The position numbers and the translations under genes were made by a program. Below the pieces are notes generated by a model. That model ran no database searches, was not told where the DNA came from, and worked only from the letters and a program-made list of their open reading frames with translations. A stretch of DNA of 64,000 nt from Schmidtea polychroa (taxonomy: Eukaryota): assembly GCA_044892525.1 (NCBI GenBank), contig CM097887.1, forward strand, positions 16,802,001 to 16,866,000, written 5' to 3'. This document shows positions 36,972-64,000 of the stretch, piece by piece (the first letter of the stretch is position 1; each line of letters opens with the position of its first letter).

Positions 36972-37327
<356 letters not shown>

Positions 37328-37778: not shown

Positions 37779-37846
37779 AAGTGGAAGGGGAAGGGGAGGG
37801 GGGGAGAGGGGGAGGGGGGGGGGGGAGTTCCTCTATATCCGGCCGG
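37779..37846 (+). other. G-rich tract with G-quadruplex potential
   Basis: More than four G>=3 runs, including a long uninterrupted G run, in AT-rich surroundings. Confidence 0.6.
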
Positions 37847-38348
37847 TTCACATATATGGATCAAGGCGAAAAGTGGGAAACAAATTCAAATCTCCACTAT
37901 GGAATTATGAAGCAGATTGAAATATATAATATTTAGTACAACATATTATCAAGGCGGTATATCAGGATAAAACTGAAAAGAGTATGAAGAAGCAATGTCA
38001 CTGTAGGCATTCCTTGTCAAATGATTGGATAATTGAAAACGGAACTGAGCGATATACATTGCAGGGTTCTCTCGGGTATAATTGATCAACTATTTTTAGG
38101 CAAGATGATATTACCTGCTCTTCTATCTCAATTTAATCCGCTAGGCTTATTCTTTGGTATAATGAATTAATCTCGTATCTGCCATTTATTGATTCTATAA
38201 TCTTCGTTTAATAAGCTAACTGATTACCGCATTTTTACTACTGTGAACACGTCATGCGCTAATGGACCGAGCACAGACCAAGCGGCAGGTTTCATTATAC
38301 CTGAAACCTGTAAAGGATGTTACTCAGAACTTTTTGATTTATTATATT

Positions 38349-41649: not shown

Positions 41650-41720
41650 GAGAAACGCCACTCAAACACGTTTCACACTATATATCTCGACAGATGTCCT
41701 GTCATCATCAGGTAGGATAG
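41650..41720 (-). ncRNA. Hammerhead-like motif, paralog of the 12.0 kb motif (core GAAA changed to GAGA)
   Basis: CTGATGA-T-[GACAG gacat CTGTC]-GAGA-TATATA-GTG...AGTGGCG. Confidence 0.45.
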
Positions 41721-42749: not shown

Positions 42750-43600
42750 TTTATTGTAAAGTAACTTTGTTTAAAGAAGTTTGAATTTTTAAAAATAAAT
42801 TTTTTGTTTAAATGAAGTGATTAATTTTAATTTAAAGTAATTTTGTTTAAATAAAGTGATGTCAATTTTTTAATTAACTTATCTTAATAAATCGATATTT
42901 ATTTTTAAAAAGTAAAACGTTTATTTAAATGAAATTATATAATTTTAATTTATTTGTTTGAAAAAGTTTGAATTTTTAAAAATAAATTTTTTGTTTAAAT
43001 GAAGTGATTATTTTTAATTTAAAGTAATTTTATTTAAATGAAGTGATGCCAATTTTTTAATTAACTTCTTATCTTAATAAATTGATATTTATTTTTAAAA
43101 AGTAAAACGTTTGTTTAAGTGAAATTATATAATTTTAATTTTTTTTCTTTTTAATTGCGTGAATAATAAAAAATTATTATAATTGATAATTGAAAACTAA
43201 TTTTGGCGAAGTTTTTTAATTAAATAATATAATATATAGATTGTACCGATAAATAACGTAATTACCATTTTTGAAATAATTTTTTTGTTTAAATGAAATG
43301 ATTAACTTGTTGTTTAAATAAAGTGATATATATTTAACAAAGTTACACTTTTATTTAAATGAAATTTTATAATTTAAATTTATTTGTTTGAAGAAATTTT
43401 TAAAAATATGTTTTTTGTTTAAATGAAGTGATTAATTTTAATTTAAAGTTATTTTGTTTAAATAACTTATCTGAGAATAAATTAATATTTATTTTTAAAA
43501 AGTAAAACGTTTGTTTAAGTGAAATTATATAATTTTAATTTTTGTTTAAATGAAGAAATAATTGAAAGCTAATTGAAAACTAACAAAAGTGATAGATTTT
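42750..43600. repeat. Degenerate tandem repeat, ~180-bp period, built from TTTAAATGAAGTGAT submotifs
   Basis: 42770-42950 nearly repeats at 42955-43140 and partly at 43350-43560. Confidence 0.75.
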
Positions 43601-44844
43601 AATTTAAAGTAATTTTCCCTTAAAGAAGTTAAATTAATGTAACAAATAGTTTATTTTCAAGTAAACAAAAATGTAAATTATTGAAATTAATATCCAAAAA
43701 GTTAATAATTAAATAATTAAAGTTTATCTTGATATCATGGAAATTTAAAATAATAATTGAATAATAATTGCGTTAATTTTTGTTTGAAAATTTTACAATA
43801 AACAGAATTTTCAATAAACTAAAGCGGCCTAACATGTGCTGGATTTACTTTTACTGTTGAATCGACAGCACTCTGATTTTATCTTAACCTGCATTTCTGT
43901 CTGTTTCTTTTCCATTGCATACTATCACATCCACTTGAAATTCTCCCATATATAGTTTGTCGTTATGCTTGTCGGGTCACAAAATTGATTTTTATCCCTA
44001 AATAACATGAAAAATGCCACTCTAAAAAAATTGCGAATAAAAAATATAGATTGGAATAATACGAAAATATTTTTTCTAGTGCTTTGCAAAATAATTTTTT
44101 ACTATTTCCGCTAAAGATTGTTTATGAATCTTTTACTCTAAATCTTTTTCCAATAGCATTTTGACAATTATTACATCTGAAACATTTCTTGATTTCATAC
44201 ATTTTGAATTTGTTACTGTTAGGATATGAATTTCCAACTTTTTAGACTAAATTATANNNNNNNNNNNNNNNNNNNNNNNNNNNNNNNNNNNNNNNNNNNN
44301 NNNNNNNNNNNNNNNNNNNNNNNNNNNNNNNNNNNNNNNNNNNNNNNNNNNNNNNNNNNNNNNNNNNNNNNNNNNNNNNNNNNNNNNNNNNNNNNNNNNN
44401 NNNNNNNNNNNNNNNNNNNNNNNNNNNNNNNNNNNNNNNNNNNNNNNNNNNNNNNNNNNNNNNNNNNNNNNNNNNNNNNNNNNNNNNNNNNNNNNNNNNN
44501 NNNNNNNNNNNNNNNNNNNNNNNNNNNNNNNNTTAAATAATAAAATATTTAAAATATTTGTCGAAGAATGTGCATCTTGATTTAAACACATTTCAACTAT
44601 TTTATTTGATTTCCAAAGATCTGTAATAAACAGCAGACATTCCATCCGTTGTCATTAAAGACGTATTACTTGAAGAAATTTCTTCTAGCTCCAAATTAGA
44701 ATTTGTCACTTCATTCTGTTTATCCTTTAATTTATATCAAAATTTTCTCTATTGAATAGTTGGAAATAACATATAGTTTCTTTAAAACAATTATTTTACC
44801 TAAATCTATTTTATTACATAAATTGCTAATATTTTCTTCATGAG

Positions 44845-44846
44845 TA

Positions 44847-44906
<60 letters not shown>

Positions 44907-44930
44907 CAATAATAATAATAATAATAATAT
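44845..44930. repeat. (TAA)n microsatellite
   Basis: Direct reading. Confidence 0.95.
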
Positions 44931-44959
44931 AAATAAAAACGCCAAATCCAATATATCTC

Positions 44960-45453
44960 CATTTTCAAGTTCTGGATAACTGTCGACTGAGCGAATTGAC
45001 ACAATTTTATGTTTAGGTTCACATTTTTGTATTTGGAATCTTATACCGTTTGCGTAAATATTTTGAACAAGAAGTTTTGTATTCTATGTTGTAAAGTGGC
45101 TTCTAATTCCTGTTTTTTTTAACTTCGTGTGTGTTAGTGTATTTCACGTCCTACTCAGATTGTGTTCAGATCTTGGTTATTAATATATTTATGTCATACC
45201 CATCATCTCCGTTCTCAAGTTCTTGATCACTATTGACTGAACGAATTGATTAATATTAGTAAACACAATTTTGTGAAAAATTTATTGATATATTGCATGA
45301 TTTCAACTTTTGTGAATTTTGAAAGTTTGAATTGAGAAAACAGAATTTTATGAATTTTTAGCAAAATTATATAAAAAAAAATTAATGAATTAGTTTGTTT
45401 AAAAAAGAGCAATTTAGATTGATTTAGTTTGAATTTCAATTCAACCTGACGAT
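44960..45453 (+). mobile_element. Diverged copy of the PLE-derived 3' region found at 55.6-56.1 kb (opposite orientation)
   Basis: Collinear similarity to the reverse complement of 55640-56110; ends CCTGACGAT at the gap edge. Confidence 0.8.
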
Positions 45454-46698
45454 NNNNNNNNNNNNNNNNNNNNNNNNNNNNNNNNNNNNNNNNNNNNNNN
45501 NNNNNNNNNNNNNNNNNNNNNNNNNNNNNNNNNNNNNNNNNNNNNNNNNNNNNNNNNNNNNNNNNNNNNNNNNNNNNNNNNNNNNNNNNNNNNNNNNNNN
45601 NNNNNNNNNNNNNNNNNNNNNNNNNNNNNNNNNNNCTTCAAATGTCAAGTATATTCAAAACAAAAATCAGTGGCAATGTTCCGCTATGAAATAGTCCTTT
45701 TCAATCTGCGTATGCAAATAGTTTTAATATGATCGTTTTATTAGAATAACTCGCCTTTTGATTGGATCTAGATTTAATTTCAAAATAAAATTTATTCCAA
45801 TAATTTTATTTTTTAAAAACTTTCAATTTTAAAATAGATAATTAACATGAAAAATATCTTGCAAATATTAATAAATATGCTTAAAATCGAATAATTTCTC
45901 ATTTTTTCAACACTAGATTTTCTTAGGTGAGGGTTGAAAAGAATAGATAAGCATGTATAATGTTTCTAAATTGGGAATGACAGCAATAGCTCCATGTGAA
46001 ATAGTACAGTTATAGAACCCCTACATAAATATAGAAAGAAAATTAATTTAAGAAAATCTTAATCTATGCTAAATTCTTTTTGCGAAGCTTTAACTTAAAA
46101 ATAGTCGTTTTCGAATTCCTAAAAAGGACTTTTGACATCTACAATAAAGCTATAATTTTTAACTGTGCACATTTGTTTGTTTATGTTTTTATCAATAACT
46201 AATTTAGGATGCATATTATAATTTGGGTAAATGTGTATTCGATACATAAGGTATACACATGTTAGAAAAGGCTTTTCTTTTTATTGATTTTGTTAAGATA
46301 AATAAGGGTAAATAAACAAACTAAAATACCAAGTTTTCTCTCGCAATTAGTTAACAAAACTACTGACAAATGTAAGAAAAAGAACTATTTCAAGACAGGT
46401 CTGATTAAAAAAGACTCATCGAAACTTATACCTCATGGAGTTTGTATAATTTTTAATATCTTTGTAAAAAAGTCATATGGCATCAGATATGAATATGTAA
46501 AATGCATAATATGCATATTTCAAAAAATATCATAAAAATATGTATTTATAGAATTTCGTATTTATAGAAAAATATGTATTTATAGATTTACCCTAAACAA
46601 TAGACCAATTTTCATTTTCTATTTAACAATAATCTAATCTGTGAGACTGAAAACAGTTCAAAGATGAGAAAGATCAAATATTTGAATGATATATCTAA

Positions 46699-47400
46699 CT
46701 AGTATAGCAACCCGTCAAGCATGACGGGAAAAGTTAAAATGATAATGAAAATAAAGTTAATTTTTTGTAAATTTTATTTTAAAAATTTGTCAAGTAACTT
46801 AAAGTTAAATTTTACATGTCAAACATTTCCTGATAAACTATATTGTGAGTGAAATTCCTTCTATTTTTGAGCAACTTTCCTTGTTGTGGCCCTGGAGAGA
46901 TGAATATTTTTATTCTGTCTCGATTTCTTGATCTCGATAAAGTTACGTAGAATTGTCCATGTTAGAAAACCGGGTTGTTCAAAAAGATTCACACATGGTC
47001 ATAAGTCTGTCCTTGAGATTTGTTAATTGCAACAGCAAATTCAGGAATCACTGGGAACTGTCTGCGCCTCAAAATAAACGGTAAACTCACGTCACTTTGT
47101 ACTAAGTCAATCCTTGGAATGTTGACTATATCACCTCGGTTTAATTCTGAAAGTATCTTTGCTTTAATCGAATGCTGTTGTAAACTGGTGATGATAAGTC
47201 TGATAAGTCTAGCTGCATCCACCTGCCTTCAAGCTTTCCGTTGATCCTTAGTTTCATTAGGGTGTTTTTGTTGACGTTGAATTCTGTTCTTCGCACGCTT
47301 ACGTTCCATCTCCTCCGGACTAAGTCTTTTTTGTTAGTTTTTACCCATTCCTTAAAATAGGACCAGTTTTGATTTGATCCGGGACACGTACAACCAAACA
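46699..47400 (-). mobile_element. Internally deleted Helitron
   Basis: 3' hairpin CCCGTCA-agca-TGACGGG (46711-46728) plus CTAG|T; helicase relic RRQFPVIPEFAVAINKSQGQT joined to an N-terminal charged-repeat relic (NETKDQRKA*RQVDAARL). Confidence 0.85.
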
Positions 47401-47479
47401 AACAAATTAATGATGGCTATTATATTATTAATATTTTTGAATAAATAGTTAAACATACATGGCAACGATTTAATTATAA

Positions 47480-47543
47480 AAAAGCGCCACTCAAACATTA
47501 GGTTTTAAAATACGACAGTTTTCCTGTCATCATCAGGTAGTAT
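47480..47543 (-). ncRNA. Third hammerhead-like paralog, core degenerate, interrupted by a hAT MITE
   Basis: CTGATGA-T-[GACAG gaaaa CTGTC]-GTAT...TGAGTGGCG. Confidence 0.35.
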
Positions 47544-47909
47544 CAGGGCTGTAACAAGGCATTATTGCGCCCTGTTTTTTTCACTATTTATTCATCTCCA
47601 GCTATTATAATAGGTAGTAATGCTCTTAAAATTCTTTTGCCAATTGAAAAAATGACAGGGGCCCATTTTGTGGACTAACATTTTACAAAATACACACCTA
47701 CAAAGGGACGCTAATGGACCAGTTCAATCAGCAATGTTAATAATAGGCTTATTAGGGCGTCGTTTTGCAAGCCATTTGATATTTTCTTTTATTTATATTT
47801 TGTTATTTTTTGGTAACATTAAAAAAAATGTTACATTCCAATTTTGCGCCCCTTTCAGATGTGTGCCCTGTGCGACTGCACCACTCTCACCACCCTTATA
47901 ACGGCCCTG
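47544..47909. mobile_element. hAT-type MITE
   Basis: TIR CAGGGCTGTAACAAGG / CCCTTATAACGGCCCTG; 8-bp TSD GGTAGTAT/GGTAGGAT; empty site seen in the 41.7 kb paralog. Confidence 0.85.
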
Positions 47910-48974
47910 GGTAGGATAGAATAACTATAGAAATTATATCATTTGTTTATATAAAAATTATAATTTAAATAATAAATTATTTTTTTATTTTTGCAACTAA
48001 AAAGAAATTTTAAAATATTGACATTTAAAATTATCCGATTTAATAATTTAATAATTATTTAATTTAACAACAATCCATTGAGTGACGCTTTCTTATATCT
48101 ATTATTCTTTACTTTCGTAATTCCATCTCATTTTTTCCTTGATTTTTTATTTACATTTATTAATGTAAAATTTTTACAAAGTTTGGTAAAAAGTTAATAA
48201 TAACGTGAATTAAAAATAAATTATAAAGACCTTTGGAAACGTATCACTCTATAATGAACGATTAGAAAAGATAATGAAAACCATTTGAGACATTTAAAGA
48301 TTTTCTTAGTTATTCTTTTTAATATCACAATATTATGATAAATTAAAGGATCACTTTTCTCAAACGAGATTTGATTTGATGACGCAACTATTGTCAAATT
48401 CCAATCATTGCCACGCTCATCATAATCTGAAGTGTTGAATTTCATAATGATCATTATACTAATATCAAAATTGATCACTACTTGACCGAAGGAAGTTTTC
48501 TGTCATTTGTCCAGTACAGATTTATTATTTGAATTTATATTCAATGAAGATTAAATTTTATATGTAAATTACTGTATAATTTTCACGTAGATTTATTTCA
48601 AAGTGTGTAGAATTTTATAATGAGTTACGATATCTAAATTATTTAACTTTAATTTGCTTAATTAAATTAAATTAAATTATTTATTATTATTATCGTAGAA
48701 AAATACTTTTTAAATGAATATAACTCCAATAGGTAAAATACACAAAATGAACATGTCAACAAACCAGTAATATACCTACGCTTTCGTTTCTTAAACAATA
48801 AGACATGTAATATAATAAGATTTTACATTCGTAATACGGGGTTGCCAGTGTATATTCGCTCAACTTTTACACCTCTGCACCTTTGAAATCACAATTTTGG
48901 AAATCTAAAAAATCTCCAACATCAGACCTGTTTCATCGAGATTGTCTATGCCAATCCTCTACCAAATGTTTTTG

Positions 48975-49250
48975 TTTTTCAAAAAACATTTAATACCAAA
49001 TCACTTGCACAAGATGCGACGCAACGTATATAGGGGAAACACATAGAACGTTCCAAAAAAAACTCAATGAACACATCAAAAACAAAACCAGTAATTATCA
49101 CGAACACTGGAAAAAGTACACAAATCAGCACCACTCTCGTACACGAAACAAAATGCAACATATTACAAGATACGTTCAAAAATACATTATAAAGATTAGC
49201 CACAGAAACTCTTTTTATCAAAAAACATAAACCTCAGTCAACATTCAATT
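48975..49250 (+). mobile_element. Penelope-like GIY-YIG relic
   Basis: YQITCTRCDATYIGETHRTFQKKLNEH...RLATETLFIKKHKP. Confidence 0.75.
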
Positions 49251-49454
49251 AAATTAAATTTCAGGGACATTTATTTAATAAAAACTTGTTAAAAAATTCC
49301 AATTACAAAATTAAAAAAATAATAATATAAGAAATATCTAAAATCTTAATATCATTTAAAATGTAATTTCAAATTAAAATTTACCAAAAATCTAACATAA
49401 AATACAAAATAAATTTATTTTTTCCTATAAGTTTTTTCTTATAATGATCAAAAT

Positions 49455-49600
49455 CACTCAGAAAAAGGCAGTGCCGAAAATTCGTGAATATTAAAAAATA
49501 TTGATATATTTATTGATTCATAGTCAAGCTTTTTTAATAAATACAATGTCAATTGAAAAGAAATCATTGGTGAAAATTGAAAAAAGTTCTTATAATATTA
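49455..49600 (+). repeat. Dispersed repeat family A copy
   Basis: AAATCACT...GGCAGTGCCGAAAATTCGTGAATAT. Confidence 0.75.
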
Positions 49601-50339
49601 TTAGATGTTATTATATGAATATTTTCAAAAAGAATAACACATACAGTTGTCTTGACATAAAATCTTGATTGTGTACCTAAACTGAAACAAATCTATCCCA
49701 TAAATACATTATATTATTTCATAAATGAAAGATATATTAACAAAAAAAGCAGATCATACACATTTAACCATCCTATAACATGTTAGATATGTTCATAGAA
49801 AATACCGTATTAAATGAGGCTAAGAGCCATTACAAAATGGAGAGATGTGTTCAGAAAACATTTTAAAATACAATAAATATGTAAATCACCCCAGAAACTA
49901 TTTCCACTAAATCCGGTTCGCCAACTCCTTCTTTCACTATTAATTCTTGGACTGGTTTACATAACACAATATACGGCTCATGGCAAATTAATATCCCAAT
50001 ATAATTACGTCACAGTTCTCTAACCGATTGGCGTTTGTTCCTTGTATTTCAAGCCATACAAAAAACTTATAAGTAATTACGTGAGTTATGAATACATAAT
50101 AATGGAGATACTAGATCATATGATACTATAATTTTGATATACTCTTTTATCTTGTATCCTATTATAAACTTAATTTCTATTGTTTCGTGTTTCATTTAGT
50201 GTATTGTACAGACCTCTTACATTGAGTGATCAATTTGATTAAATAATAAGTACTATTAATCTGCTTACAAATTAAGATCATTGTTATTTCTATATACAGT
50301 CTACGGCAAAACAATTAGTAGAATAATTCTTACACAAAT

Positions 50340-52300
50340 ATCAAAGAAGGCTACTTGTTTTATTGCAAATATACAATGTTCGCTGTCTGAAAGCTGTAGT
50401 CATTCAGATGGTCTATTTCCAGAATCCTCGAACTTTTTAGAAAATGATCCTGCAATATTTTTATGACCCTCATCTCCTAGAGTAAAAGTACATGTTATAA
50501 TATATACATATACAAAGTGTTCATAAATTCCATCTGCAATTAACATACCTAGAGCTAAGAACCCTAATGTGTGAGAAAGAACCTGTAAAAAGCAAAAGAA
50601 GATACACTTAAATTCTTTATTGTTCTTGTTAATTTTCAACATGTCCACCATCATTATTATTACAAAGGGAATGCGATTTTGTAGTTTTCTGAAAACATTT
50701 CCGAGTATATTTTACCATCCTATCACCTTACCAGTCTTTCTTGTACGGATTTCTAAAACTCTTTTGACCAGAAGGGTAGATTTTAGTTCAGTCAGTCAAT
50801 GAACACAGTTTAATTTCTCTTTTAATGAAATCATTCATTGTATTTTTCTACTTGTTTTGAAGAATAACATTTTAAAAAGTACGTGATATTATTCAAAAGA
50901 ACTTTTAAAGTGATGAACAATATACCAATTTAATAAACTGCACGAATTGGATTCTTTTATTTCTTTATTTATACTTATGACATTCTCATATCCTAAATCC
51001 AGGAGTTCTAATTCTAATATTATAAAATAAAAAATCTCTAAATGACAATATTAGAAGCTGCTAACACATCGTCTAAATTATTTTTTAAATCCGGTTCAAA
51101 AGTTAACGTCATAATTCCAAGTATTTATTTAATGAAATATTGTATAATTTTCAAACAAATTTTCAGCATTGATCAAAATATTAAAAAAAACCATTTATTA
51201 AAATTTCGATATTTAAAATATATTTATTTACAATGATTTACTAATAAAAAGCTTGTTTAATTTTTCAATTTAAAAATTTCAATTTAAAATATTTAATTTA
51301 AAAATTATTTTAAAAGTTATTTTAATATTCAATTATTTATCATTTTAAATTATCTTAATAAAGCATTGAAATATTTAATTCTCAGCTGAAGACACCTCAC
51401 AAACAGTATTGAAAATAAGTTTTGGGATTTCATTTCATAGTTCAAAAGACATTAAATGATACAGGAGTGTATAGCAAATTTCCGTTAATTAAAAAAACTT
51501 TGCAACTAATAGCTAACTCAAATCAAATAACTTATCTAATTGAATAGTAGTAGGGCCCTTAGGCACAGACATATTAACCCCTATTCTGAAAAATAAAATC
51601 AGTTATTACAGAAATCAGAATAATAGTAAAATTGTTTGTTTAAATAATAAACAATGATGACATATTTGTTTTATTGAAGGTGTAAAAATTTGACATTAAC
51701 CAGTTAAAGTAAAGTAGTAATATTCTTTGACAAAATCATGCATTACAATAAGTTTGGTTACGAGTGACGTAAAATAACAATATTCTTCCAAGAGAATTTA
51801 TCTTCCCTGAAACATGGGGGTTCTTCCCTCAATCATGGATTCATTGCAGTTTTTTTCTTTTTTATCGCGAAATTCGTGATGATAAGTTCAAATTAAATAT
51901 GACAATTCTAATTATACAAAATGTCAACATGAATATACGGTAGAGTTGTCAAAATTTGAAAAACCGTACACAAGACAGTTGTTTAAAAAACTCGCTATTG
52001 ACACCAAAATATTTTAATTGAGAGAATATTAAAAGAATATTAAATAAAAAAGGTTTTTGAAAAATTTTTAAATAATAATAAAAATATGTTATTTTTTACA
52101 TCCCTCTCTAATTAATGGTTTGCAGGTGCTCACATTTTACACTGGTTAATGTTCTTAATGACATTTTCAAGTAAATTGGTAAAAATTTCATATATAATTT
52201 TATAATCTATATAAATAAACGTAGTTGTAATCACTACTGAATTCTTTGTTTTATCATACCATCCGTAATATTTTGTTGAGTCTCATCTTCACATTTACTT
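50340..52300 (-). CDS. Probable exons of an unresolved minus-strand gene
   Basis: Exon-like islands with splice signals: tttttacag|VLSHTLGFLALGMLIADGIYEHF at 50583; LKERSKCEDETQQNITD G|gtatga near 52260. No consistent model could be built. Confidence 0.3.
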
Positions 52301-52342
52301 CTTTCCTTCAAATAATAAGTTTATAATTAGTAACTAACTTAA

Positions 52343-53065
52343 CCATTTGCCGGGCGCGCGCTCAAATATGAGTGCAAAAAATGTGTACCATTTCGGACGA
52401 GCGCTCACATGTGAGCGCAAACTCATATAGAAAAAATATTGTCCTTTGAATAAGAAATCTGATCCTGGGCGTGGACTAACATATGAGCGATATTTCGAAC
52501 AACATTATTTTACGATATTTATGTTCTAAACTGCCATTTCTTAGGTCATTTTTTTTTATAAACACATGTGAATTTTCGGCTCTACACACATGAATTCCAG
52601 GTTCGTATTTTTTTCATATTTTCTAAAATATCAGTTGTCCAATAACCACGCGCACGACTGCATCGTTTTTGAATTGTTTCACTTCGTTCTTCGGACATTT
52701 CGTGTTTTTCAAACTGTTTTTTTGTTTGTGTGTGTGTGTACACTTTGAACTATTTCATTTTTAACTGTTAAAAATATATTTCATTGATTTATAAAATGGG
52801 TTCATCGAGCGGGTTCATTATTTATAGCCTCACAGTTGACTAATTTTATGATGGGACTCTTATTTAATATCCTAAGAGATGATATCTACACAGTGGCTCT
52901 TATTTTTTTTATATAATAACAATAATTAATAATTAGTGAATACAAACTCGGAAAATTAAAAAAGAAATATTTACGTTATATTTTGATTATATACTATTAA
53001 TTAATGATTTAAAAAAAATAGTTTTTTTGACCGAAAACATGAAAAAAAAATCGCCCGGCAAGTGG
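52343..53065. mobile_element. piggyBac-type non-autonomous element
   Basis: TTAA|CCATTTGCCGGGCG ... CGCCCGGCAAGTGG|TTAA. Confidence 0.88.
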
Positions 53066-53116
53066 TTAATTGTTAATTGCATCATAATAAACAATATTCT
53101 TATTTTGTTTAATTGA

Positions 53117-53439
53117 CTAGCTGGGGTACCCGGCGTTGCACGATTCAAGAAATAGTAAAAAGATTCAAAATAAAGAAATTTATTTCAATTCATTCATTTA
53201 AAAAAATAATTTAAAAAAAACAAAAATTTAATTAAAAAAAATTACATGTAATTTATATATCACTTATGATAAAGCTTGTCGACAGACTATATTTTTAGTT
53301 TTTCCTTCTGATGCAAAAAAACACCCTATGACCTGTCCCGAGTCAAATGAGGGTCACGTGCAAAATTTCAGCACCCTAGGTCCAACGGTGGGGAATTCTA
53401 TGGGTAACAAACAAACAAACTTTCATCTTTATATAGTAG

Positions 53440-53440
<1 letters not shown>
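53117..53440 (-). mobile_element. Non-autonomous Helitron (324 bp)
   Basis: 5' A|TCTACTATATAAAG, 3' GC-rich partial hairpin plus CTAG|T; inserted in an A|T site. Confidence 0.8.

Positions 53441-53444
<4 letters not shown>

Positions 53445-53491
<47 letters not shown>
53445..53491. repeat. (TA)n microsatellite
   Basis: Direct reading. Confidence 0.95.
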
Positions 53492-53492
<1 letters not shown>

Positions 53493-53945
53493 AATATTAG
53501 GTTCTTTAATAAAATGAATAACAAACTTTCAACATATATTGAATATAATAAATATTTTACAAACGATTTAATTATATACACAGTAAATAAACTGAATTTT
53601 TGATCAGCAAGGGTCGGGACTTTTCACAATATAAAGCAATATTCACTTGTTAAATGATTCTGAATTTCTTCCCACAATATTTACCATAAAAATATCCCTT
53701 GGGTTTATTAATATTTTCAAATAAATAGCCTGTTTAACACTACTCGGGTTTTCATTAATTCTTATCTGAGATGATAATGCCGATTTCATATAGCTGTACT
53801 AATTTATATATTCAATATAGCTGTTTTTTTGACATTTTTCTTCTGGTAAATACTCGGCTGTCATAAAAGAACATGGAATATAATTACTGGCTTAACAGCT
53901 GCTATCCCACTTATAATCATTAACCTCTCAACTCCCGTTTAGGGT

Positions 53946-54419
53946 ATTGTGACTTTTACCGCCGTTAAATCAAATTAATTTTTAATAAAAAAAATACTGC
54001 CGTTAAATAAAAAAACAACAAATTTATAACAAAATATATTTCAACACCATCATTGGCTATCGATATGTTCCTTGTATTTAGCAAGCGTACAATGCCCTCC
54101 ACAATTAGTACATAGACGAGTATTTGAGAATGCATTTCTCCACAGTTGATATTTGATTAACAATTGCAAAAAAAAGAGAATTCTTCATTTAAAATGTCCT
54201 CCTTGGAAAGTACTTCTTCTTCAATAACAATAAATTTAACACCAGGTGGTCTACTGCGTCCTGTCATGACTAAAACTTCAATGAATTTGACTTCAATTAA
54301 ATTAATATATTTCTAATTAATATATTTTTATAATATATTTATAATATATTCTCATATATTTATTGTATTATAGTCATGAAAAAGTTAATCATAGATTTTA
54401 CGGCGGTAAAAATCACAAT
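53946..54419. mobile_element. MITE-like element with ~27-bp inverted repeats
   Basis: ATTGTGACTTTTACCGCCGTTAAATC / GATTTTACGGCGGTAAAAATCACAAT. Confidence 0.6.
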
Positions 54420-54969
54420 GACAATAATTGCTCTCAAAATTCAAATTTGTTTATATCAATAACCATTTTTTGCTTTTCATACTTTTTATTATATTGTTCT
54501 CCAATATCTTTTCTACCCTGAACCGTTTCAGACGTTCGAATTAAAATAATTAATCATTTATTAATTTTCTGTACGTTTACATTTCGATGCCCTTTACATC
54601 GATTATGCACTTCCTATTTCGGTTTCCATTATATTTTTCCTTGTTATCAATTCTATTCCTGACCATGTTTACACATTTCCATTTCATCTTTTTTCAAATT
54701 AAATTAAATTTTAAAATTATTTTATTTTTACCAAAAGTCGATTTTAACGATTTTCTTCAAAAAAAAATCTGAATAAAAAAACAATGATTTTTTTACCAGT
54801 TTTTTTAAATTTATTTTTTTTTAAATTTAGATAATCAGAAAATTGTGCTAAATTCAGCAAATATTATACTGAGAAAAACTTTTGATTAAAATTGGAAATT
54901 TTGCAAAATTCTATTTTATTAAAGAATACGAAAATTTTACATTTTATTAAATTTTATATTAAAATAAAT

Positions 54970-55115
54970 AAAATCACTTGAAACAGGCAGTGCCGAAAAT
55001 TCGTGAATATCAAAAAAAAAAGATATATTACTGATTTATAGGCTTCAAGCTCTTTTTAATAAATTCAATGGAAAAAAATCAATGGTGAAATTGGAAAAAA
55101 AAGTTCTTATAATTT
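54970..55115 (+). repeat. Dispersed repeat family A copy
   Basis: GGCAGTGCCGAAAATTCGTGAATATC... Confidence 0.75.
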
Positions 55116-55639
55116 TAAATCTGTTTTTTTATAAATATCCCGATGGTTATATTTATACTTAGGGACCCTAAAAATAACGCGCTGATATATGCATTGAATG
55201 ATGCATTTGAATGCATTGAATGATGAAGAATTAATGCATTTTTTGCAATAAACTTTGAAACGCTGTAACTTTATTAATAAAAATAAGAACCGTTAAATTT
55301 GAGACACTTTTGACATGTTTTGGTTTTTTGTCATATTTCTATTTCTGACATTTCAAATAGTCAATTACAATCAAGTTAAAAGTAGTAGTCATACGCCAAA
55401 GCGAGTGAATCATAACTATGTGCTTCCTATGTGTTATTAGTAATAACTTATTACTATTATATAAAACACGCTCACGGTAAATATACGCCATTAATATACT
55501 ACGTCATTAAAATTGTTTCCTCTCATCAGTGTTGTAAATTCACATTGTAAAATAATCAATTTCAGCGTCATCTTTTTGCATATAAAGGATAGTAGAGATA
55601 CGTTCCGACACCTTTTTATCCAGAAAAAAACCACTATAT

Positions 55640-56857
55640 ATCAGATTAAATTGAAATTCAGACTAAATCAATCTGAATTACTCTTTTTTTAACAAACTAA
55701 TTCATTAATATATTTTAAATTAAAGTTCGCTAAAAAATCATAAAATACTGTTTTCTCAATTCAAATTTTCAAAACTTATAAATTTTGCACAAAATTGTAT
55801 TTACTAATATATCAATCAATTCCTTCAGTCGATAGTGATCAAGAACGTGAGAACGGAGAGGATGGGCAGCCATTCCAATGTATGTGGCATTGCACTCATG
55901 ACATAAATATTCACTAACAAATTCACCAAGAAATCCACTAACAAACACGAAATTTAAAAAACAGGAATTAGAAACCACCTTACAACATAGAATACACAAC
56001 TTCCTGTTCAAAATATTTACTCAAACTGTATAACACTCCAAACACAAAAATGTAAACCTAAACATAAAATTGTGTTTGCTGATATAAATCAATTCGCTCA
56101 GTCGACAGTTTTGAAGACATTGAGAACGGAGATGACGGGCAGCCATTCCAATGTATGTGGCATTGCACTCATGACATAAATATTCACTAACAAATTCACC
56201 AAGAAATCCACTAACAAACACGAAATTTAAAAAACAGGAATTAGAAACCACCTTACAACATAGAATACACAACTTCCTGTTCAAAATATTTACTCAAACT
56301 GTATAACACTCCAAACACAACAATGTAAACCTAAACATAAAATTGTGTTTGCTGATATAAATCAATTCGCTCAGTCGACAGTTTTGAAGACATTGAGAAC
56401 GGAGATGACGGGCAGCCATTCCAATGTATGTGGCATTGCACTCATGACATAAATATTCACTAACAAATTCACCAAGAAATCCACTAACAAACACGAAATT
56501 TAAAAAACAGGAATTAGAAACCACCTTACAACATAGAATACACAACTTCCTGTTCAAAATATTTACTCAAACTGTATAACACTCCAAACACAACAATGTA
56601 AACCTAAACATAAAATTGTGTTTGCTGATATAAATCAATTCGCTCAGTCGACAGTTTTGAAGACATTGAGAACGGAGATGACGGGCAGTCATTCCAATGT
56701 ATGTAGCATTGCACCCATGACATATATATTCATATATATTCAATCGAAGCAAGAACCGAAATGGACCAATTTCACAATTTACATCATACATAGCCAATAT
56801 CATTATAATCAATATAATTAAATAAATTGAATAAATTCTTATTATATAAACAAACAT
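55640..56857 (-). repeat. Tandem array (~3.5 x 273 bp) derived from a Penelope-like GIY-YIG 3' region
   Basis: Period 273 (ORF track 56021/56294/56567); units translate (N)IYEYICHGCNATYIGMTARHLRS. Confidence 0.9.
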
Positions 56858-56867
56858 CTTTAAAATA

Positions 56868-56948
56868 CAGGAATACCTCGAACAGTACGGTTAATCGGTT
56901 CTGGAATTTAGCTGTACTATTTGAAACCGGACTATTCGAGGCATTCTG
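56868..56948. mobile_element. pogo/Tc1-type terminal fragment with internal inverted repeat
   Basis: TA|CAGGAATACCTCGAACAGTACGGTT ... AACCGGACTATTCGAGGCATTCTG. Confidence 0.5.
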
Positions 56949-56975
56949 GCGCTAATAAATTTACAGCTTAGTACC

Positions 56976-57249
56976 AGTAGTGTGTTTATATCCCTAACCA
57001 AAACAGCCCTCCCAACAAAACATACCTCCATTACGCTTAAACCATTAGAAAAACAACCTAAAACTTATACTTTTATAGTATTTTAACCCTATATTTTGAA
57101 AACAACCACCCTTAATGGCTCTAACTGTTTTAATCTTTAAAGCCTCAAACTCAAAAGCTTCAAACTAAAAACATAAAGAGAATAGAAAAGAAAATGGTAT
57201 TATGAAAAAGTTAGAGGGCTATTTTGGTTAGGGATATAAACACACTACT
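56976..57249. mobile_element. MITE with ~36-bp TIRs
   Basis: AGTAGTGTGTTTATATCCCTAACCAAAACAGCCCTC / GAGGGCTATTTTGGTTAGGGATATAAACACACTACT (one mismatch). Confidence 0.85.
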
Positions 57250-57355
57250 TGAGGATGTCAACTAGCAAGTTGCTATTTGACTAATTTATAATTTTATAAA
57301 TCTTAATCTTGATGTCTTGAAGAATAAAAAATTTTATGAAATAGTAAAACTGCTC

Positions 57356-57416
57356 TGAGAGGACAGTGGTATTTTTTTTTTTCACTGTCCTCTCAACAGT
57401 TTTTTTGATCCGGATC
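57356..57416 (+). other. 13-bp perfect hairpin followed by a T-run and a palindrome
   Basis: TGAGAGGACAGTG (57356-57368) / CACTGTCCTCTCA (57383-57395), then T7 and GATCCGGATC. Confidence 0.6.
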
Positions 57417-57867
57417 ATTTTTTTATTCAACCTCTTTCGTTTATCGAATCTCTTCCAATATACAAGCTGGCCAGACTCATACATCAGAATCAATTCGATA
57501 ATAGCAGCACACCTTATTATTCGCTTCTCGCTCGAATACGATTTCATCGGCATTTTAAGCGTGCTGCTCGAAAGTACAAATGAATTCGAAAGTGAATCCG
57601 AAAGAGGTCCGAAAACAACTGAGAAATAAATGTGCACATTATAGAATCGATCCGGGGTGTTTTCGAAAGACTGGTGGCGATAATTACCGGTTCACCATCA
57701 CACCCGTTTCAATAATTTTTTTTCATATTTATGTTTAAAAAATAAAATAAATAAAAAAAAATAAAAATATATAAAATAAAATAAAAATAAATAAAATAAA
57801 ATATAAATCTAAGATACCCACACCATTTTCAATATTATTTTCAAATTTTTAATATTATTTTATGTTG

Positions 57868-57949
57868 AAAAAAAACTAACCTCAGATATGATTTGAACCG
57901 CTATCTATTTGAACCACTGTGCCAGTCTAGCCCACTGCGCTATCTAGGT
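57868..57949 (-). ncRNA. tRNA-like Pol III cassette (A box, B box, terminal stem, T8 terminator)
   Basis: ACCTAGA-TAGCGCAGTGG...GGTTCAAATC...TCTGAGGT-TAG-TTTTTTTT; does not fold into a canonical cloverleaf. Confidence 0.5.
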
Positions 57950-58029
57950 TTCAGATTTTTATTTATAAAATTCTAAAAATTAGACTGTCACATTATGAAA
58001 ATGAATAATATATAAATTTAAAAAATAAA

Positions 58030-61000
58030 ATGAAAACAGGGTATCCAATAAAAAATTTTTTTCTAAAAATGAATTGTAATATTTGTAATAAAGTTTTTAA
58101 AAATAAAACTGGATTAATTTCTCATTTAAAATCGAAAGCTCATTTATTAAAAGAAAATAATCTTAATGATACAAATTCAAAACTTTGTCCTAAATGTAAA
58201 GGAAGATTTCTACATTCTGGATATGATAAACATTTTGAAAATTGTATTGGGAAAAATAGAGAAATATTTACATGTCCTCATTGTAACTTTTCAACAAAAC
58301 TAAATTTCTATTATTTAGAACATATAAAAGAATGTAAAAATAAAAAACAAAATTCTGACGATGAGGAATGTCATTCAGAAGGAGAACCTGATCATGTTGA
58401 AAGAGAAAAATATAACTGGGATAATTTTAATCATATAGATGAATTTCAATTAAAAATTAATGGACCTGCAACTCCTGGAGAATATATAAATAAAAATAAA
58501 AAAAATATTAAAAATTCTTTCACTGAAGCTTTAAAAAATTATAAACCGACAAGGTATAATGTTATAAAATATAAAATTATAATCAAAGCAAAATACTGGC
58601 GAGGAGCAGAAGAAAAGACAACTCCTTTAGATGTTGAAATTGGAATACCTTTTAAATATTTATTTTCAACTAAAGGATTTGATAAAACCATCAAAGAAAT
58701 AATTAAAGCAGCAGAAGCAAAACAAGAGGAAGTAGAAAATGAATTAGGAGATTCAAACTTAGTATTCAACTCTTTCCAAACTTTAGTGATTGATTATTGG
58801 AGAGGATTACCACCTAATCCTAAATCTTATATTCCTACACCCTTTACATCTAAAAATGTTATAAACGTACAGAATAATGATAACAAATGTTTCATCTGGT
58901 CAATACTTGCACATTTGCACCCTCAAGAATCAAACCCTCAAAGAGTTTCAAAATACAAACAATATGAAAATGAATTAATATTTCCCAAAGAATTCAAACA
59001 TCCAATGAAACTAGAAGACATTCCAAAATTTGAAAGTTTAAATAATCTTAAAATTAATATTTATGAACGGGTTAAAGGGAAAAATATTAAAAGTAGAGAA
59101 ATTATTCCAATTTACATTTCTGATAGTGGAACCAAGGATAACGAAGTACAAGATAACGAAAACCCTAGAGAAATATATCTTTTAATCTTGGAACAAAAAA
59201 ATAATCAACATTATGTTTTAATAAAAAACTTTCAAGCTTTTACATCACCAGAGAATCCAACTAGTGGAGGAGGAACATGTAAAAGATGTCTTCATTATTC
59301 AACAACTAAAAACTCTATGATTAAACATACAAGATTTTGTGAAAAAGATGAACCAGCTTTAATTACCATGCCTACAGATCCCAAGATGAATTTTAAAAAC
59401 TTTTCAAATTTACTACAAACAGTAGGAGTGGTTTATGGAGACTTTGAATCTATAAATCGTAAACAAGATTTGGTTAACCAATATTTAAAAATAATAGAAA
59501 AAAATAAACTCATGGATTCATGGAACTCCTCAGGAGAGAAGATGAAACCAGAGAGGATGAAAGCCTTTCTAAGAAAAAGAAATAAACCTAATAGTGTTAA
59601 AAAAACTAAACAATTACCTTCTGCTTATAAAATATTATTTAAAAGTAATTATCCTGAACTCATAGAATCTAGAGAATATACATTTCAAGGAACTTTAGAA
59701 GATGTTTTAAATCATTTTACTAAAAGTATAAATGATCTAGAACATGAAATATTTAAAGTATTAAAAACAAAATATGAAATAAACCTTTCAACCGAACAAT
59801 GGGAAGAATATGAAAATTCTTCAAATTGTTGGATGTGTAAACAACCATTTGAGGATCAACTCCTTGAGGAACCTCCAAATAATGAAACTATTGAAGAAGA
59901 AGAACAAAGAATGTTTCATGAAAGACAATCTTCAAACATAAAAGTCCCCGATCATGATCATTTAAAAAAGGAAAATAATTATCGAGGAGCAGCTCATAAA
60001 AATTGCAATCTTAATTGTCATACTCCTAAATTTGTACCTGTTATATTTCATAATCTTTTTGGTTATGACATACATCTATTTATTAAAAATTTAGCAGAAA
60101 ATGCTAAAAACTCCTTCAAAGTTATAGGACTTACAAAGGAAAAATATAAATCAGTTGAATATGGAAAATTAAAATTTATAGACTCGTTAAACTTTCTCCA
60201 AATGTCTCTAGATGCAGTAGCAAAAACAATGAAACCAGAAAATTTTAAAATCACTCGAGAATTCTTGGAAAAAAATAATATTCCTCCAGAAGAATATCCT
60301 ACATGCTTAGCAAAAGGAATATATCCTTATGACTATGTTGACTCGTTTGAAAAATATAATGAAACAAGTCTTCCTAGCCAAGAAGATTTCTCTTCACAAC
60401 TTCAAAAATATCATATTACAGATCAAGAATATTCTCGAGCAAATAAAATGTGGGAATTATTCAATTATTTTAGGAGAATATACAAGTATGTATTTATCCT
60501 TGGATGTTTATATTCTAGCAGATTGCTTTGAAGAATTTACAAAATCTTTAAAAAATCTTAAACCTTACAATTATATAACACCACCCTCTTTAGCTTGGGA
60601 TACTTTATTATATACCATTTGGACTTCAAATATAGAAGAAGGTGATAAAATTATAGATCTTTTAACTAACCTCGATATGTTTAACCAAATTAAAACAAAC
60701 ATTAGAGGAGGAGTCTCTTCAGTAATGGGGAATAGAGAAATAAAAGCTAGAAATGCAATAACTACTAGCCGAAGACTCTCTAAACACCCTGATGATCCAT
60801 ATATGAAAATTAACAATGAGGAATTAAAAGAATTATTAGAAACAATGAAAAATCCTATATTTATACTTTATATAGATGCAACAGCTTTATATTCAGGAAT
60901 TATGACTCAATATTTACCAATGGGTGACTTTCATGAAATATACTCTGAAGATTCCTCAGAAGAATCCTTAAAAGACCTTATGAAAGAAATACTTTCAACT

Positions 61001-62468
61001 CCTAAAGATTCTCCAATAGGTTACTTTGTAGAATGTGACTTATTATATCCAGATGATATAAAATCAGGAACAAGCTCCTGTAAGAAGAAAGATTGATATC
61101 AACGAACTTTCTGAATGGCAAATCTCACAAGATAAACCTCCAACAATGAAACTTCTTTGTGATCAAAAAGATCGAAGGTTTTATCTTTGTCACTATAGAC
61201 TTTTACAGTTTTATCTTTCACGAGGTATGATATTAAAAAAAGTTCATAGTGTCATAAGATTTAAACAGAGACCATTCATGAAGGCTTTTATCGAGGAGAA
61301 CATTAGGTGTCGAAACATTGCAAAAAGAGAAGGTAACCTTTTTAAAGACAATAATTATAAACTTTTAAATAATTCAGTTTTTGGGAAGACAATGGAGAAT
61401 GTTGATAAATATACTCATATTGAACTCCTAACAAATACTACCAAAGACATTAAGCGTTATAATCGCATGCTAGGAAAGCCTACATTTAAAAACGCACAAG
61501 TATTTTCTGAAAATCTTACTGCAATAGAACTAAAGAATTTTGAGAAAACATACAATAAACCAATATTTATAGGGTTTACAATTTTAGAACTTTCAAAATT
61601 ACAAATGTATGAAACATATTATAACATCTTACAACCTATATATGGTTCTAATATATCAATGCATGCAATGGATACAGATTCAATGTTTTTAACAATAAGA
61701 ACTCATGATTTACAAAGAGATATGACTGAAAATCCTATACTTTCAAATTTAATAAATTCATCCGGAGAACTATTTTCATTTAAAGATGAAAAACCTTTTA
61801 CTCCTATAGAAAATGGAATATTTATTCGTGCTAAACAATATTCATACGAAACAATTACAAATCCTAAATTTGAAACTCGAGAAATTATATTTAAAACCCC
61901 ATTAAAAGAGGAAATTATTTCATATAAATATCCTATATTCCCTAAAGGACCTGAGGGACAAGAGGAAAAACCTGTAAAGGATAACAGATGTAAAGGAATA
62001 CTGAGATCAGTTGCAAAGAATCTTTCTCATCAAGATTATATAGATACATTAAACCCAGGTCATAAAGATAAAATTGATGAAATACATCAACTTAAAAGTG
62101 AAAACCATGATATTTACTTGATAGAATCCCAAAAAGTATCATTATCAAATTATGATGATAAAAGATTCATACTAAGTGATTTAAAGACAACTCTTCCTAT
62201 AGGAAATAATTTAATACCGATAATAAAAAATCTTGCTAGTTTGAATAAGTTATATGATACAAAGATTACTGATCTTGATATTTATAATGTTGAAATTATT
62301 TATCCCGAGAGAGAAATCGAGAAACCTTTATATTCTCAAGTTTTTAATCCTATATGTTTAGAACTTAAATATTTTAATACTGATCCTGAATATATAAAAG
62401 GTCTAAGTGATAAAGAATTTAAAGATCATAAATTAATGATTCATAGGTTGGCTTTCAACCATAACTGA
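58030..62468 (+). pseudogene. polB: Protein-primed family B DNA polymerase, split by two frameshifts (ORFs 58030-60531, 60329-61096, 61146-62468)
   Basis: N-terminal C2H2-like fingers; ExoI VYGDFES, endonuclease-VII-like PDHDHL...YRGAAHKNCN, ExoII FHNLFGYD, ExoIII YLSLDV, PolA YIDATALY, PolB KLLNNSVFGKT, PolC MDTDS, RAKQY, CKGI, LSNYDDKR. Confidence 0.92.
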
Positions 62469-62562
62469 AACCAACGATATTTAATTTTTTAATAATTAAA
62501 TGTCGACAATTAATTTAAGCAACTATAGCAACTTGATCTACTTTTTTAAAAATTCATCCATT

Positions 62563-63156
62563 TTATAAGTAAGAATTCTTTAACCATTTTTCTCGTTTAA
62601 TTTTTTTAGAATATTCATTACTTATAACATTAGCACTTTTTAATCTTATAACCTCATTTTTAATATCTTGTATTATTTGATTTGATTTCATTATTTCATC
62701 ATCAGTTAAGATTCCATCTTCTAAAGCTTTTAATTGAAATAAAAATAATTTAGAGATTCCTAATTCTATTGATAAACAAACTTCACGATATAAACTTTTC
62801 TTTTTAGAAGTATAAGATAATGAAACTATTTCAGTTAAGAAACCATCAGCTACAGAAATACTTCCAAGTATTACATGTGCAAGAGTAACAACTGGTAAAG
62901 TTATGGGTAAAATAACTGTTAATATTGCAGATGCAAATCCTAAAGAATAACCTATAACTTTTAAAACTGTATTCCCTTTATTCCATCTATTTTTAATTTT
63001 TTTATAATGCTTTAATAAATCTTGTAAATGTAAGGTTTCTGATTTAAATTCTTTTACTCTCATAATGTCAAGTTCTGTGGGAGCTGAGGCCTTGGAAGAA
63101 TAATATCCTGATGATCTCAATTCTGGGTAAATTTTTTCTTCTCTTACTTCTTCCAT
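62563..63156 (-). CDS. Small Polinton/adintovirus-type membrane protein (GasderminX-like family by pattern)
   Basis: KIYPEL N-terminus, basic KHYKKIKNRW, two hydrophobic helices, LKALEDGILTDDEI; intact 197 aa. Confidence 0.65.
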   Translation of the reverse strand: MEEVREEKIYPELRSSGYYSSKASAPTELDIMRVKEFKSETLHLQDLLKHYKKIKNRWNKGNTVLKVIGYSLGFASAILTVILPITLPVVTLAHVILGSISVADGFLTEIVSLSYTSKKKSLYREVCLSIELGISKLFLFQLKALEDGILTDDEIMKSNQIIQDIKNEVIRLKSANVISNEYSKKIKREKWLKNSYL

Positions 63157-63164
63157 TTTAATAA

Positions 63165-64000
63165 TTAAAAAAATAAGACTTTATTCTTCTGAGCACCATC
63201 TGGTACCAATACTCGGATATCAAAAGAAACTCTTGTTGAGAGGATATCTTTATACAATTCTCTCAATGCTTTACGAACTTCATCAACATCAACCTTTTTT
63301 TCATAAAATATTAAATCTATATATTGTACAAGTGTGCTTTTAAAAATAATATTCTTACTTTTAACTTTATGTAGTCCATGTGAATGAGTATTAACATACC
63401 AATCTCCGTGTGGTAAATCATAACTAGTCATTATAACATCACCCTTTTCAAGCTTACTATTATAATCACATTTCACAAACCATTTCATTCTTTCATTATC
63501 ATCATCAAACAAAAAGAAATAAGGATCAATAATTTTTACAACCATAAAAACACCCCATTCTTTACTGTTTGTTGTTATTAAACTTGGTTCTATAAAATGT
63601 TTATATGTATGGGGTAATAATGTTTTATTTTGTTCTAATTCAGCAGCTCTTTTTCTAATACTATGTGTGGTGTTAATGTGTGTTCCATGAGACTCTAAAT
63701 TTGAAATTCTTTTATTAAATGATGTAATCATCTCATTTATTATATTATATATTGTATTAAATTTAGTATTCATAATTTGTTTATCTTTAGAATTTAATAT
63801 GCTAGTATTTAACTTTACAACTTGTTCAGTTAACAGACTTTGTAACTTGTCAAATTTATCATTAAATCGTTGTTCGATATTATTAAGCTTTGATTCTATT
63901 GAATCAATTTTTGTTGTTAATAAACTTTCAATTCTTGTTGTTGTTAAATCAGTATATTTTTTATTAACTGCATCAGAATCATCAGTTGGACAAGATAAAT
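63165..64000 (-). CDS. Fibre/adhesin-like coiled-coil protein, 5' end beyond the window
   Basis: The frame is open for 75 more codons upstream of the tracked ATG at 63773: LSCPTDDSDAVNKKYTD, then heptads (KIDSIESKLNNIEQRFNDKFDKLQSLL), then an unrecognised ~150-aa domain. Confidence 0.65.
   Translation of the reverse strand, partial: LSCPTDDSDAVNKKYTDLTTTRIESLLTTKIDSIESKLNNIEQRFNDKFDKLQSLLTEQVVKLNTSILNSKDKQIMNTKFNTIYNIINEMITSFNKRISNLESHGTHINTTHSIRKRAAELEQNKTLLPHTYKHFIEPSLITTNSKEWGVFMVVKIIDPYFFLFDDDNERMKWFVKCDYNSKLEKGDVIMTSYDLPHGDWYVNTHSHGLHKVKSKNIIFKSTLVQYIDLIFYEKKVDVDEVRKALRELYKDILSTRVSFDIRVLVPDGAQKNKVLFF

What the first reader, a model, noticed from the sequence alone, without database searches (positions are those of the whole stretch)
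58030..64000. Integrated Polinton/adintovirus-like segment with pPolB and virion-type accessory genes
Seen: a 6-kb intronless block with all exonuclease and polymerase motifs of a protein-primed PolB, N-terminal zinc fingers, an endonuclease-VII-like insertion, and two intact convergent ORFs. Known: this layout is typical of Polintons/Mavericks and adintoviruses. Inference: this is one end of an endogenous virus whose capsid, ATPase and integrase genes lie to the right of the window.
Basis: partly seen in the sequence, partly recalled or inferred. Interest (0 to 1): 0.7.

Follow-up and report, generated by a model that had tools for sequence, protein, structure and literature searches.

The report
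Polinton virus copy with lipase-fused integrase
This is the left half of a complete 14-kb virus-like jumping element (a Polinton/Maverick) sitting in an intron of a host kinase gene; this copy's DNA polymerase gene is broken, and its integrase is fused to a phospholipase domain that is likely packed into the predicted particle and cut free by the element's own protease.

Summary
Confirmed as a Polinton/Maverick; the pPolB is not intact. The element runs from window 56,976 to 7.4 kb beyond the window: 14,432 bp, 986-bp terminal inverted repeats (98.8% alike), AGTAGT ends, a 6-bp target duplication. To the right lie a penton, an adenain-like protease, a pX-like protein, an A32 ATPase, an integrase and a double-jelly-roll capsid gene. 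It sits in a 35-kb intron of a TTBK-like gene and is one of a multi-copy family: 22 of 31 copies have perfect target duplications, and shared substitutions show purifying selection on the virion genes (omega 0.12 against 0.53 for private ones). The unusual part is an in-frame parvovirus-type PLA2 at the front of the integrase, ending in a conserved K-xxx-GxG site like virophage protease sites. It is common among relatives (111 of 120 listed) and I did not find it in print; the scan noted it before elsewhere in this genome (e1-9115377).

The parts
56970..56975 (.). Left copy of the 6-bp target-site duplication (AGTACC); the right copy is at L002:7408-7413
   Evidence: Same hexamer on both sides; 7 of 7 paralogous copies of the host repeat carry it once
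56976..57960 (.). Left terminal inverted repeat, begins AGTAGT; the right TIR is at L002:6424-7407 and ends ACTACT
   Evidence: 986 bp, 98.8% identical to the right TIR
57214..57249 (.). Inverted copy of the terminal 36 bp inside the TIR; each end could fold back on itself as single-stranded DNA
   Evidence: pair I1 (35 of 36); fold z -8.1 against 200 shuffles; present at 30 of 36 or better in 53 of 58 ends
58030..62468 (+). Protein-primed PolB, broken into three frames (58,030-60,531; 60,329-61,096; 61,146-62,468). Order: C2H2 fingers, terminal-protein domain, vOTU, exonuclease with endonuclease VII-like insert, palm
   Evidence: model of residues 1-813: 135-258 Y-family little-finger fold Z 6.8, 271-403 OTU Z 6.9, 464-778 PolB exonuclease Z 5.6-6.1 (all middling Z)
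62563..63156 (-). 197-aa protein with a hydrophobic stretch that looks like two membrane helices; function not shown
   Evidence: No Pfam family; Atlas look-alikes 0.91-0.93 are unnamed, mostly viral clusters, weak DUF4231 lead at 0.82; shared-substitution omega 0.05
63165..64000 (-). 327-aa fibre-like protein (tail-fibre-type repeat, coiled coil, C-terminal domain); starts 148 bases beyond the window (L073:1165-2148)
   Evidence: Weak PDB sequence hits, two of six named tail fibre (E 0.08, 0.25; best hit Gp44 E 0.013); translation
64000..64000 (.). Marker for the 7.4 kb of the element beyond the window (L002 = G000:C3:16866001-16876000): penton 186-1019 (-); adenain-like protease 1016-1456 (-); accessory gene of about 280 aa, broken here, from 1479 (-); pX-like core protein 2346-2864 (-); A32 ATPase 2880-3674 (+); zinc finger-PLA2-rve integrase 3686-5086 (-); double-jelly-roll capsid protein 5104-6396 (-)
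   Evidence: ORFs; Pox_A32 E 9e-10, PF08398 E 2.5e-9, rve E 2.4e-12, PF21738 E 8e-26, Adeno_PX E 5.8e-4 under cut-off; penton Z 11.7-14.0; protease; accessory gene 270 aa or longer in 20 of 31 copies
37316..64000 (+). Host intron (GT...AG) of a tau-tubulin-kinase-like gene that holds the element; it ends beyond the window at L002:8596 (35 kb in all)
   Evidence: Flanking exons match Pkinase profile positions 3-77 and 82-245; TTBK1 E 3e-84; splice sites read; splicing itself not shown

Best explanation
A complete, integrated Polinton/Maverick with 1-kb inverted repeats, a 6-bp target duplication and a full capsid module, whose polymerase gene is broken in this copy and whose PLA2-integrase fusion is likely packaged into particles and likely cut apart by the element's own protease. 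Shown: boundaries, duplication, gene set, breaks, intronic site, multi-copy family, past purifying selection on virion genes. Inferred from known Polinton and virophage biology: active family members replicate as free linear DNA by protein priming (TP-vOTU-pPolB), package it with the A32 ATPase into a double-jelly-roll capsid, and mature by protease cuts at GG/GxG sites. The freed PLA2 and the pX-like peptide would help breach the endosome, and the freed integrase would insert the genome with a 6-bp duplication. This copy can move only if other copies supply pPolB.
For: TIRs, termini and TSD; single hexamer in 7 of 7 uninterrupted paralogues of the host repeat. Gene set. 92 exact hits of the 41-nt terminus, control 0; 22 of 31 fetched copies with a perfect 6-bp TSD. 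Substitutions shared between copies: 116 nonsynonymous to 258 synonymous (omega 0.12); private ones 323 to 158 (omega 0.53), Fisher p 6e-26; MCP 0.10, ATPase 0.07, protease 0.11, penton 0.12. PLA2 part of the integrase has pairwise omega 0.13, its linker 0.44. Among 120 homologues K153 is kept in 98%, G157 in 98%, G159 in 79%, then occupancy collapses in the linker; 101 of 120 have K-xxx-GxG or K-xx-GG there. Mavirus protease cuts GG|X and GX|G, and mavirus integrase and a cleaved hydrolase are found in virions (PMC6048507, passages).
Against: No particle, transcript or cleavage was observed. 0 of 31 copies have all ten ORFs unbroken and 1 of 31 has an unbroken pPolB, so present-day autonomy is not shown; some breaks elsewhere may be assembly errors. 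Protease assignment is below significance in PDB (E 0.11). The residue four places before the predicted cut is mostly K in homologues (F here), not the M/L/I of the adenain rule (rule recalled). The GxGL enrichment (5 against 0.3 expected) was tested on three proteins chosen after seeing the motifs. Homologue counts are biased toward fusions because the query held the PLA2. Omega values use simple counts on related copies in an AT-rich genome.
Confidence: 0.72

Rival explanations
1. Same element, but the PLA2-integrase works uncut: the PLA2 is a permanent appendage that tethers the integrase to the capsid or to membranes, and the GxG is simply the conserved end of the PLA2 fold.
For: The K-xxx-GxG motif directly follows the conserved end of the PLA2 domain and could be structural; G159 is S in 2 of 16 copies; 14 of 115 PLA2-bearing homologues lack both motif forms.
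Against: The same GxGL recurs in two other proteins of the element (pX-like, accessory gene) and in none of the other nine ORFs (grouping post hoc); the motif sits at the edge of a linker that varies in length.
Confidence: 0.2
2. The family spreads inside one nucleus as a self-synthesising transposon; capsid genes are old baggage and particles are not needed.
For: No virion has been reported for Maverick-Polintons (bioRxiv 10.64898/2026.06.19.733378, passages); most copies are broken.
Against: Capsid, ATPase and protease genes show as strong a deficit of shared amino-acid changes (omega 0.07-0.12) as the integrase (0.09) and more than pPolB (0.21); this covers divergence among the present copies, not only deep ancestry.
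Confidence: 0.07
3. The block is an assembly artefact, contaminant or a non-Polinton pPolB (linear plasmid).
For: None beyond the weak PF03175 scores (22 and 30 bits).
Against: TIRs, TSD, capsid genes, intronic site, 40 of 40 scored genomic matches at 96% identity or more on four large contigs.
Confidence: 0.01

Closest known systems
Polintons/Mavericks (polintoviruses; Beta adintovirus / group-1 / pPolB2 type)
   Same: Size, long TIRs, 6-bp TSD, pPolB with TP-vOTU-Exo-palm order (PMC11161782, passages), HNH/endonuclease VII insert (bioRxiv 10.1101/2023.08.22.554363, passages), rve integrase, ATPase, protease, hexon, penton.
   Different: Integrase carries an N-terminal zinc finger and PLA2, and no chromodomain was detected (PMC11071296 passages describe adintovirus integrases with a C-terminal chromodomain). 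No GasderminX or cupiennin gene could be assigned.
PLA2X of Alpha (Mayetiola-class) adintoviruses (PMC8502044, section 3.1 and passages) and CAP of Sf Mavericks (PMC5803895, passages)
   Same: Parvovirus-VP1-type PLA2 with intact calcium-loop and catalytic residues, in a Polinton virion module, alongside a pX-like sequence.
   Different: There PLA2 is its own gene, joined to pX, and marks the Alpha module. Here PLA2 is joined to the integrase, pX is a separate gene, and the polymerase behaves as Beta-type (1 of 28 homologues hits PF03175).
Mavirus virophage (PMC6048507, passages)
   Same: rve integrase and a hydrolase are both virion proteins; the protease cuts GG|X and GX|G; penton fold matches (Z 13.6).
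   Different: Mavirus keeps integrase and hydrolase as separate genes, uses an alpha/beta hydrolase, and depends on a giant virus; no helper is known here.
TBP-carrying Polinton family noted earlier in this genome (scan notes e1-8072688 and similar)
   Same: Same genome, same general class.
   Different: No TBP family hit among this element's ORFs and no extra conserved ORF of 100 aa or more in 31 copies apart from antisense frames and inserted transposons: a different family.

Membership tests
Polinton/Maverick | [quoted passage not shown] | tested here: met
   PF03175 hits and all Exo/Pol motifs; gene present but broken in this copy, unbroken in 1 of 31 copies
Polinton/Maverick | Retroviral-type (rve) integrase | tested here: met
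   PF00665 E 2.4e-12
Polinton/Maverick | Long terminal inverted repeats (100-1500 bp) | tested here: met
   986 bp, 98.8%
Polinton/Maverick | 5-8 bp target-site duplication | tested here: met
   AGTACC on both sides; 22 of 31 copies perfect, 2 of the 9 misses had ends that the script did not find
Polinton/Maverick | Length 13-25 kb | tested here: met
   14,432 bp
Polinton/Maverick | [quoted passage not shown] | tested here: met
   PF21738 E 8e-26
Polinton/Maverick | Single-jelly-roll penton | tested here: met
   Model pLDDT 91.7; Z 12.7-14.0 to PBCV-1, mavirus, Sputnik
Polinton/Maverick | A32/FtsK packaging ATPase | tested here: met
   PF04665 E 9e-10
Polinton/Maverick | Adenain-like cysteine protease | tested here: met
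   Invariant H/D/Q/C; only PDB hits are adenain and S273R, though at E 0.11-0.36
Adintovirus (Starrett et al.) | OTU domain near the N-terminus of PolB | tested here: met
   Residues 271-403 match many OTU chains, Z up to 6.9; candidate Cys and His motifs present
Beta adintovirus / group-1 Polinton | PolB divergent from the PF03175 archetype | tested here: met
   1 of 28 homologues hits PF03175, 26 of 28 hit Endonuclease_7; own fragments score 22 and 30 bits
Beta adintovirus / group-1 Polinton | Clusters with the Terrapene reference in a PolB or hexon tree | not tested
   No named reference sequences were obtained through the tools; fold hits (Drosophila-associated adintovirus 2, MELD virus) do not settle the clade
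Beta adintovirus / group-1 Polinton | GasderminX / cupiennin accessory genes | tested here: inconclusive
   No such family hit; HHpred not available
Alpha adintovirus virion module | PLA2X: PLA2 joined to a C-terminal pX domain as its own gene | tested here: not met
   PLA2 is joined to the integrase and pX is a separate ORF
Infectious polintovirus | Forms particles that transmit the genome | not testable with these tools
   Only indirect: selection on virion genes

The most novel reading that the evidence does not exclude
A widespread, undescribed Polinton lineage makes its membrane-breaching PLA2 and its integrase as one virion polyprotein, cut at a K-xxx-GxG site by the viral protease, so that entry enzyme and integrase are packaged one-to-one; and this animal's family still spreads between cells as particles, which would give a tractable system for the long-missing Polinton virion.
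Probability: 0.4. Interest if true: 0.65.

Novelty: new variant of a known kind. Interest (0 to 1): 0.38.

Why it matters
The element itself is an ordinary member of a well-known class, and this copy is defective. Two points go beyond that. First, the PLA2-integrase fusion offers a simple answer to how a Polinton gets its integrase into the particle, and it gives a sharp biochemical test. Second, a young multi-copy family with selection on its capsid genes supports the view that animal Polintons spread through particles, for which no virion has yet been reported.

Tried and rejected
Free-standing 274-bp mini-element bounded by the terminal and inner AGTAGT arms: rejected; 72 of 78 exact inner arms run on into the TIR, 5 of the other 6 pair as element ends and 1 was not followed up. 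Flip-flop inversion of the segment between the arms: 0 of 58 ends inverted. Recombinant elements with TIRs from different subfamilies: only 1 of 27 passed the set test, so TIR divergence is not used for dating. IMG/VR scan with the integrase found no relative. PHROGs gave nothing useful. Foldseek of the pPolB model against PDB gave no match at E 0.001; its weak Y-family hits fit the published TP fold. Expression: no RNA holder listed; two runs guessed to be RNA cover the pPolB region but are not evidence. Contig depths were not used as copy numbers. One search was a mistaken alignment and carries no information. Kapitonov and Jurka 2006 is not held. The PLA2-integrase fusion was not found in searches, nor in passages of PMC8502044, PMC3671162, PMC4642659, PMC4061559, PMC4028283, PMC5803895, PMC11071296, PMC11131425 and three bioRxiv preprints; figures, Repbase entries, most supplements (one of PMC8502044 was searched, cut when stored) and subscription papers were not seen and may show it. 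The inner inverted repeat was searched once (listing only). No complex prediction was run. The host was not identified by any search; a literature search on planarians followed a recalled hunch only.
Full report
Observation. Against 29 sister copies the two breaks, near 60.47 and 61.07 kb, are short deletions, not single-base slips. Two minus-strand ORFs converge on it, of 197 aa and 327 aa, the second starting beyond the window.

Boundaries. The window is G000:C3:16802001-16866000. An inverted repeat starting AGTAGT at 56,976 led to a partner 14.4 kb away. The element is 14,432 bp, with TIRs of 986 bp at 98.8% identity and AGTACC on both sides. It interrupts a host repeat, of which 7 of 7 fetched paralogues carry the hexamer once; contigs of two public runs show the same uninterrupted junction, which may come from those paralogues. 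It lies in a 35-kb GT-AG intron (window 37,316 to L002:8596) between two exons that continue one kinase domain, closest to TTBK1. Splicing was not shown.

Gene set beyond the window. A 277-aa protein folds with pLDDT 91.7 and matches pentons of PBCV-1, mavirus, Sputnik and an aviadenovirus at Z 11.7-14.0. A 146-aa protein keeps H, D, Q and C in 38 of 38 aligned sequences, and its only PDB hits are adenain and ASFV S273R, though at E 0.11-0.36. Then come a broken accessory gene, a pX-like protein (E 6e-4, under the cut-off), an A32 ATPase, a 466-aa integrase and a double-jelly-roll capsid protein. The 327-aa ORF has weak hits that include tail fibres. The 197-aa ORF has unnamed, mostly viral look-alikes.

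Polymerase class. A model of residues 1-813 (mean pLDDT 69.6; the zinc-finger part is poor) gives, in order, a Y-family little-finger-like domain, an OTU domain and a PolB exonuclease, each at middling Z 5.6-6.9. This is the TP-vOTU-Exo order described for Polintons (PMC11161782, passages). Of 28 homologues scanned (chosen from the 120 listed), 26 hit Endonuclease_7 and 1 hits PF03175; 117 of 120 carry the insert motif. So the insert is the norm in this group, and the polymerase fits the divergent Beta class as defined in PMC8502044 (section 3.1 read). No tree with named references was built.

Family. The 41-nt terminus has 92 exact hits, control 0; 40 of 40 scored pPolB matches are 96-100% identical, from 1,910 first-look candidates, which are not copy numbers. 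Thirty further copies were fetched, chosen by paired termini. None of 31 has all ten ORFs unbroken, and 1 has an unbroken pPolB. Using long unbroken ORFs only, and dropping one of each duplicate pair, substitutions shared by two or more copies give omega 0.12 and private ones 0.53 (p 6e-26); capsid, penton, ATPase and protease give 0.07-0.12. The lineages that produced these copies were therefore keeping their virion genes working. That particles are how they spread is inference.

The unusual part. The integrase ORF begins with a zinc finger and a parvovirus-type PLA2 (E 2.5e-9; the zinc finger is read from the sequence). The fusion is whole in 16 of 31 copies, with calcium-loop and catalytic residues kept in 16 of 16 and pairwise omega 0.13. 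Of the 120 best homologues listed (601 passed), 111 carry both domains (the query favours fusions). The PLA2 ends in K-xxx-GxG, followed by a linker that varies in length; 91 of 120 have that form, 10 a GG form, 14 neither, and 5 lack the PLA2 motif. GxGL also occurs in the pX-like and accessory proteins and in none of the other nine ORFs (grouping chosen after seeing the motifs). In mavirus the related protease cuts GG|X and GX|G, and integrase and a cleaved hydrolase are virion proteins (PMC6048507, passages). Published Polinton PLA2s are separate genes, often joined to pX and tied to the Alpha module (PMC8502044; PMC5803895; PMC4642659; passages). I did not find the integrase fusion in six searches; figures, Repbase and most supplements were not seen. 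The scan had reached the same reading at another place in this genome (e1-9115377); I had stated mine first, and that note is not independent support.

Ends. Each TIR repeats its terminal 36 bp in inverted form, mostly about 220-240 bp in, in 53 of 58 ends, and the left end folds back with z -8.1. It is not a free mini-element and does not flip. It could let a displaced single strand rebuild a double-stranded origin at one end, or be a second binding site for integrase or terminal protein; this is speculation.

Mechanism and odds. Polinton identity: about 0.99, shown. This copy cannot make its own polymerase: shown from sequence. Family spread that needed the virion genes: about 0.85, inferred. 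PLA2-integrase packaged and cut at GxG: about 0.6-0.7, inferred by motif and analogy, untested. Rivals are an uncut fusion and a purely intracellular transposon.

Verdict. A real, complete but defective Polinton in a host intron. The class is well known; the PLA2-integrase fusion is a common but apparently undescribed variant. Interest 0.38.

Noticed in passing
G000:C4:85602416-85602561 (L024:1001-1146): A 146-bp palindrome made of two element termini head to head, with its own 6-bp duplication (AATAAC); either a minimal non-autonomous element or what an internal deletion left behind.
   Followed up: partly
G000:C1:249187262-249190679 (L023): A 3.4-kb element with Polinton ends and a perfect TSD but none of the family's genes; it holds an unrelated 473-aa ORF with no Pfam hit.
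   Followed up: partly
window 55,809-56,732: Tandem repeat of a 273-bp unit, about 3.4 copies, 96% alike, just left of the insertion.
   Followed up: no
window 56,866-56,975 and L002:7408-7470: The element landed inside a high-copy host repeat; 40 of 40 scored matches, 256 candidates.
   Followed up: partly
element ORF starts: Eight of the ten genes begin at an AAAATG, several after TTATTATA or TTACTATA; may be a shared promoter or start context, not tested against AT-rich chance.
   Followed up: no
L004:8437-10000 (G000:C3:16894437-16896000): Fragments of another copy of the same family about 21 kb downstream.
   Followed up: no
L019 (G000:C1:264307460-264322832): A copy whose inverted repeat is 1,202 bp and whose two 6-bp flanks are reverse complements rather than direct repeats.
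   Followed up: no
L031/L059 and L051/L053: Two pairs of near-identical copies with the same flanks, so duplicated after insertion or haplotype duplicates; one of each pair was dropped.
   Followed up: partly
window copy against sister copies, 1-kb segments: The nearest sister changes along the element (L021 for most, others for parts of pPolB and integrase), and the penton-protease region is far more variable (median 77-85%); suggests recombination among copies.
   Followed up: partly
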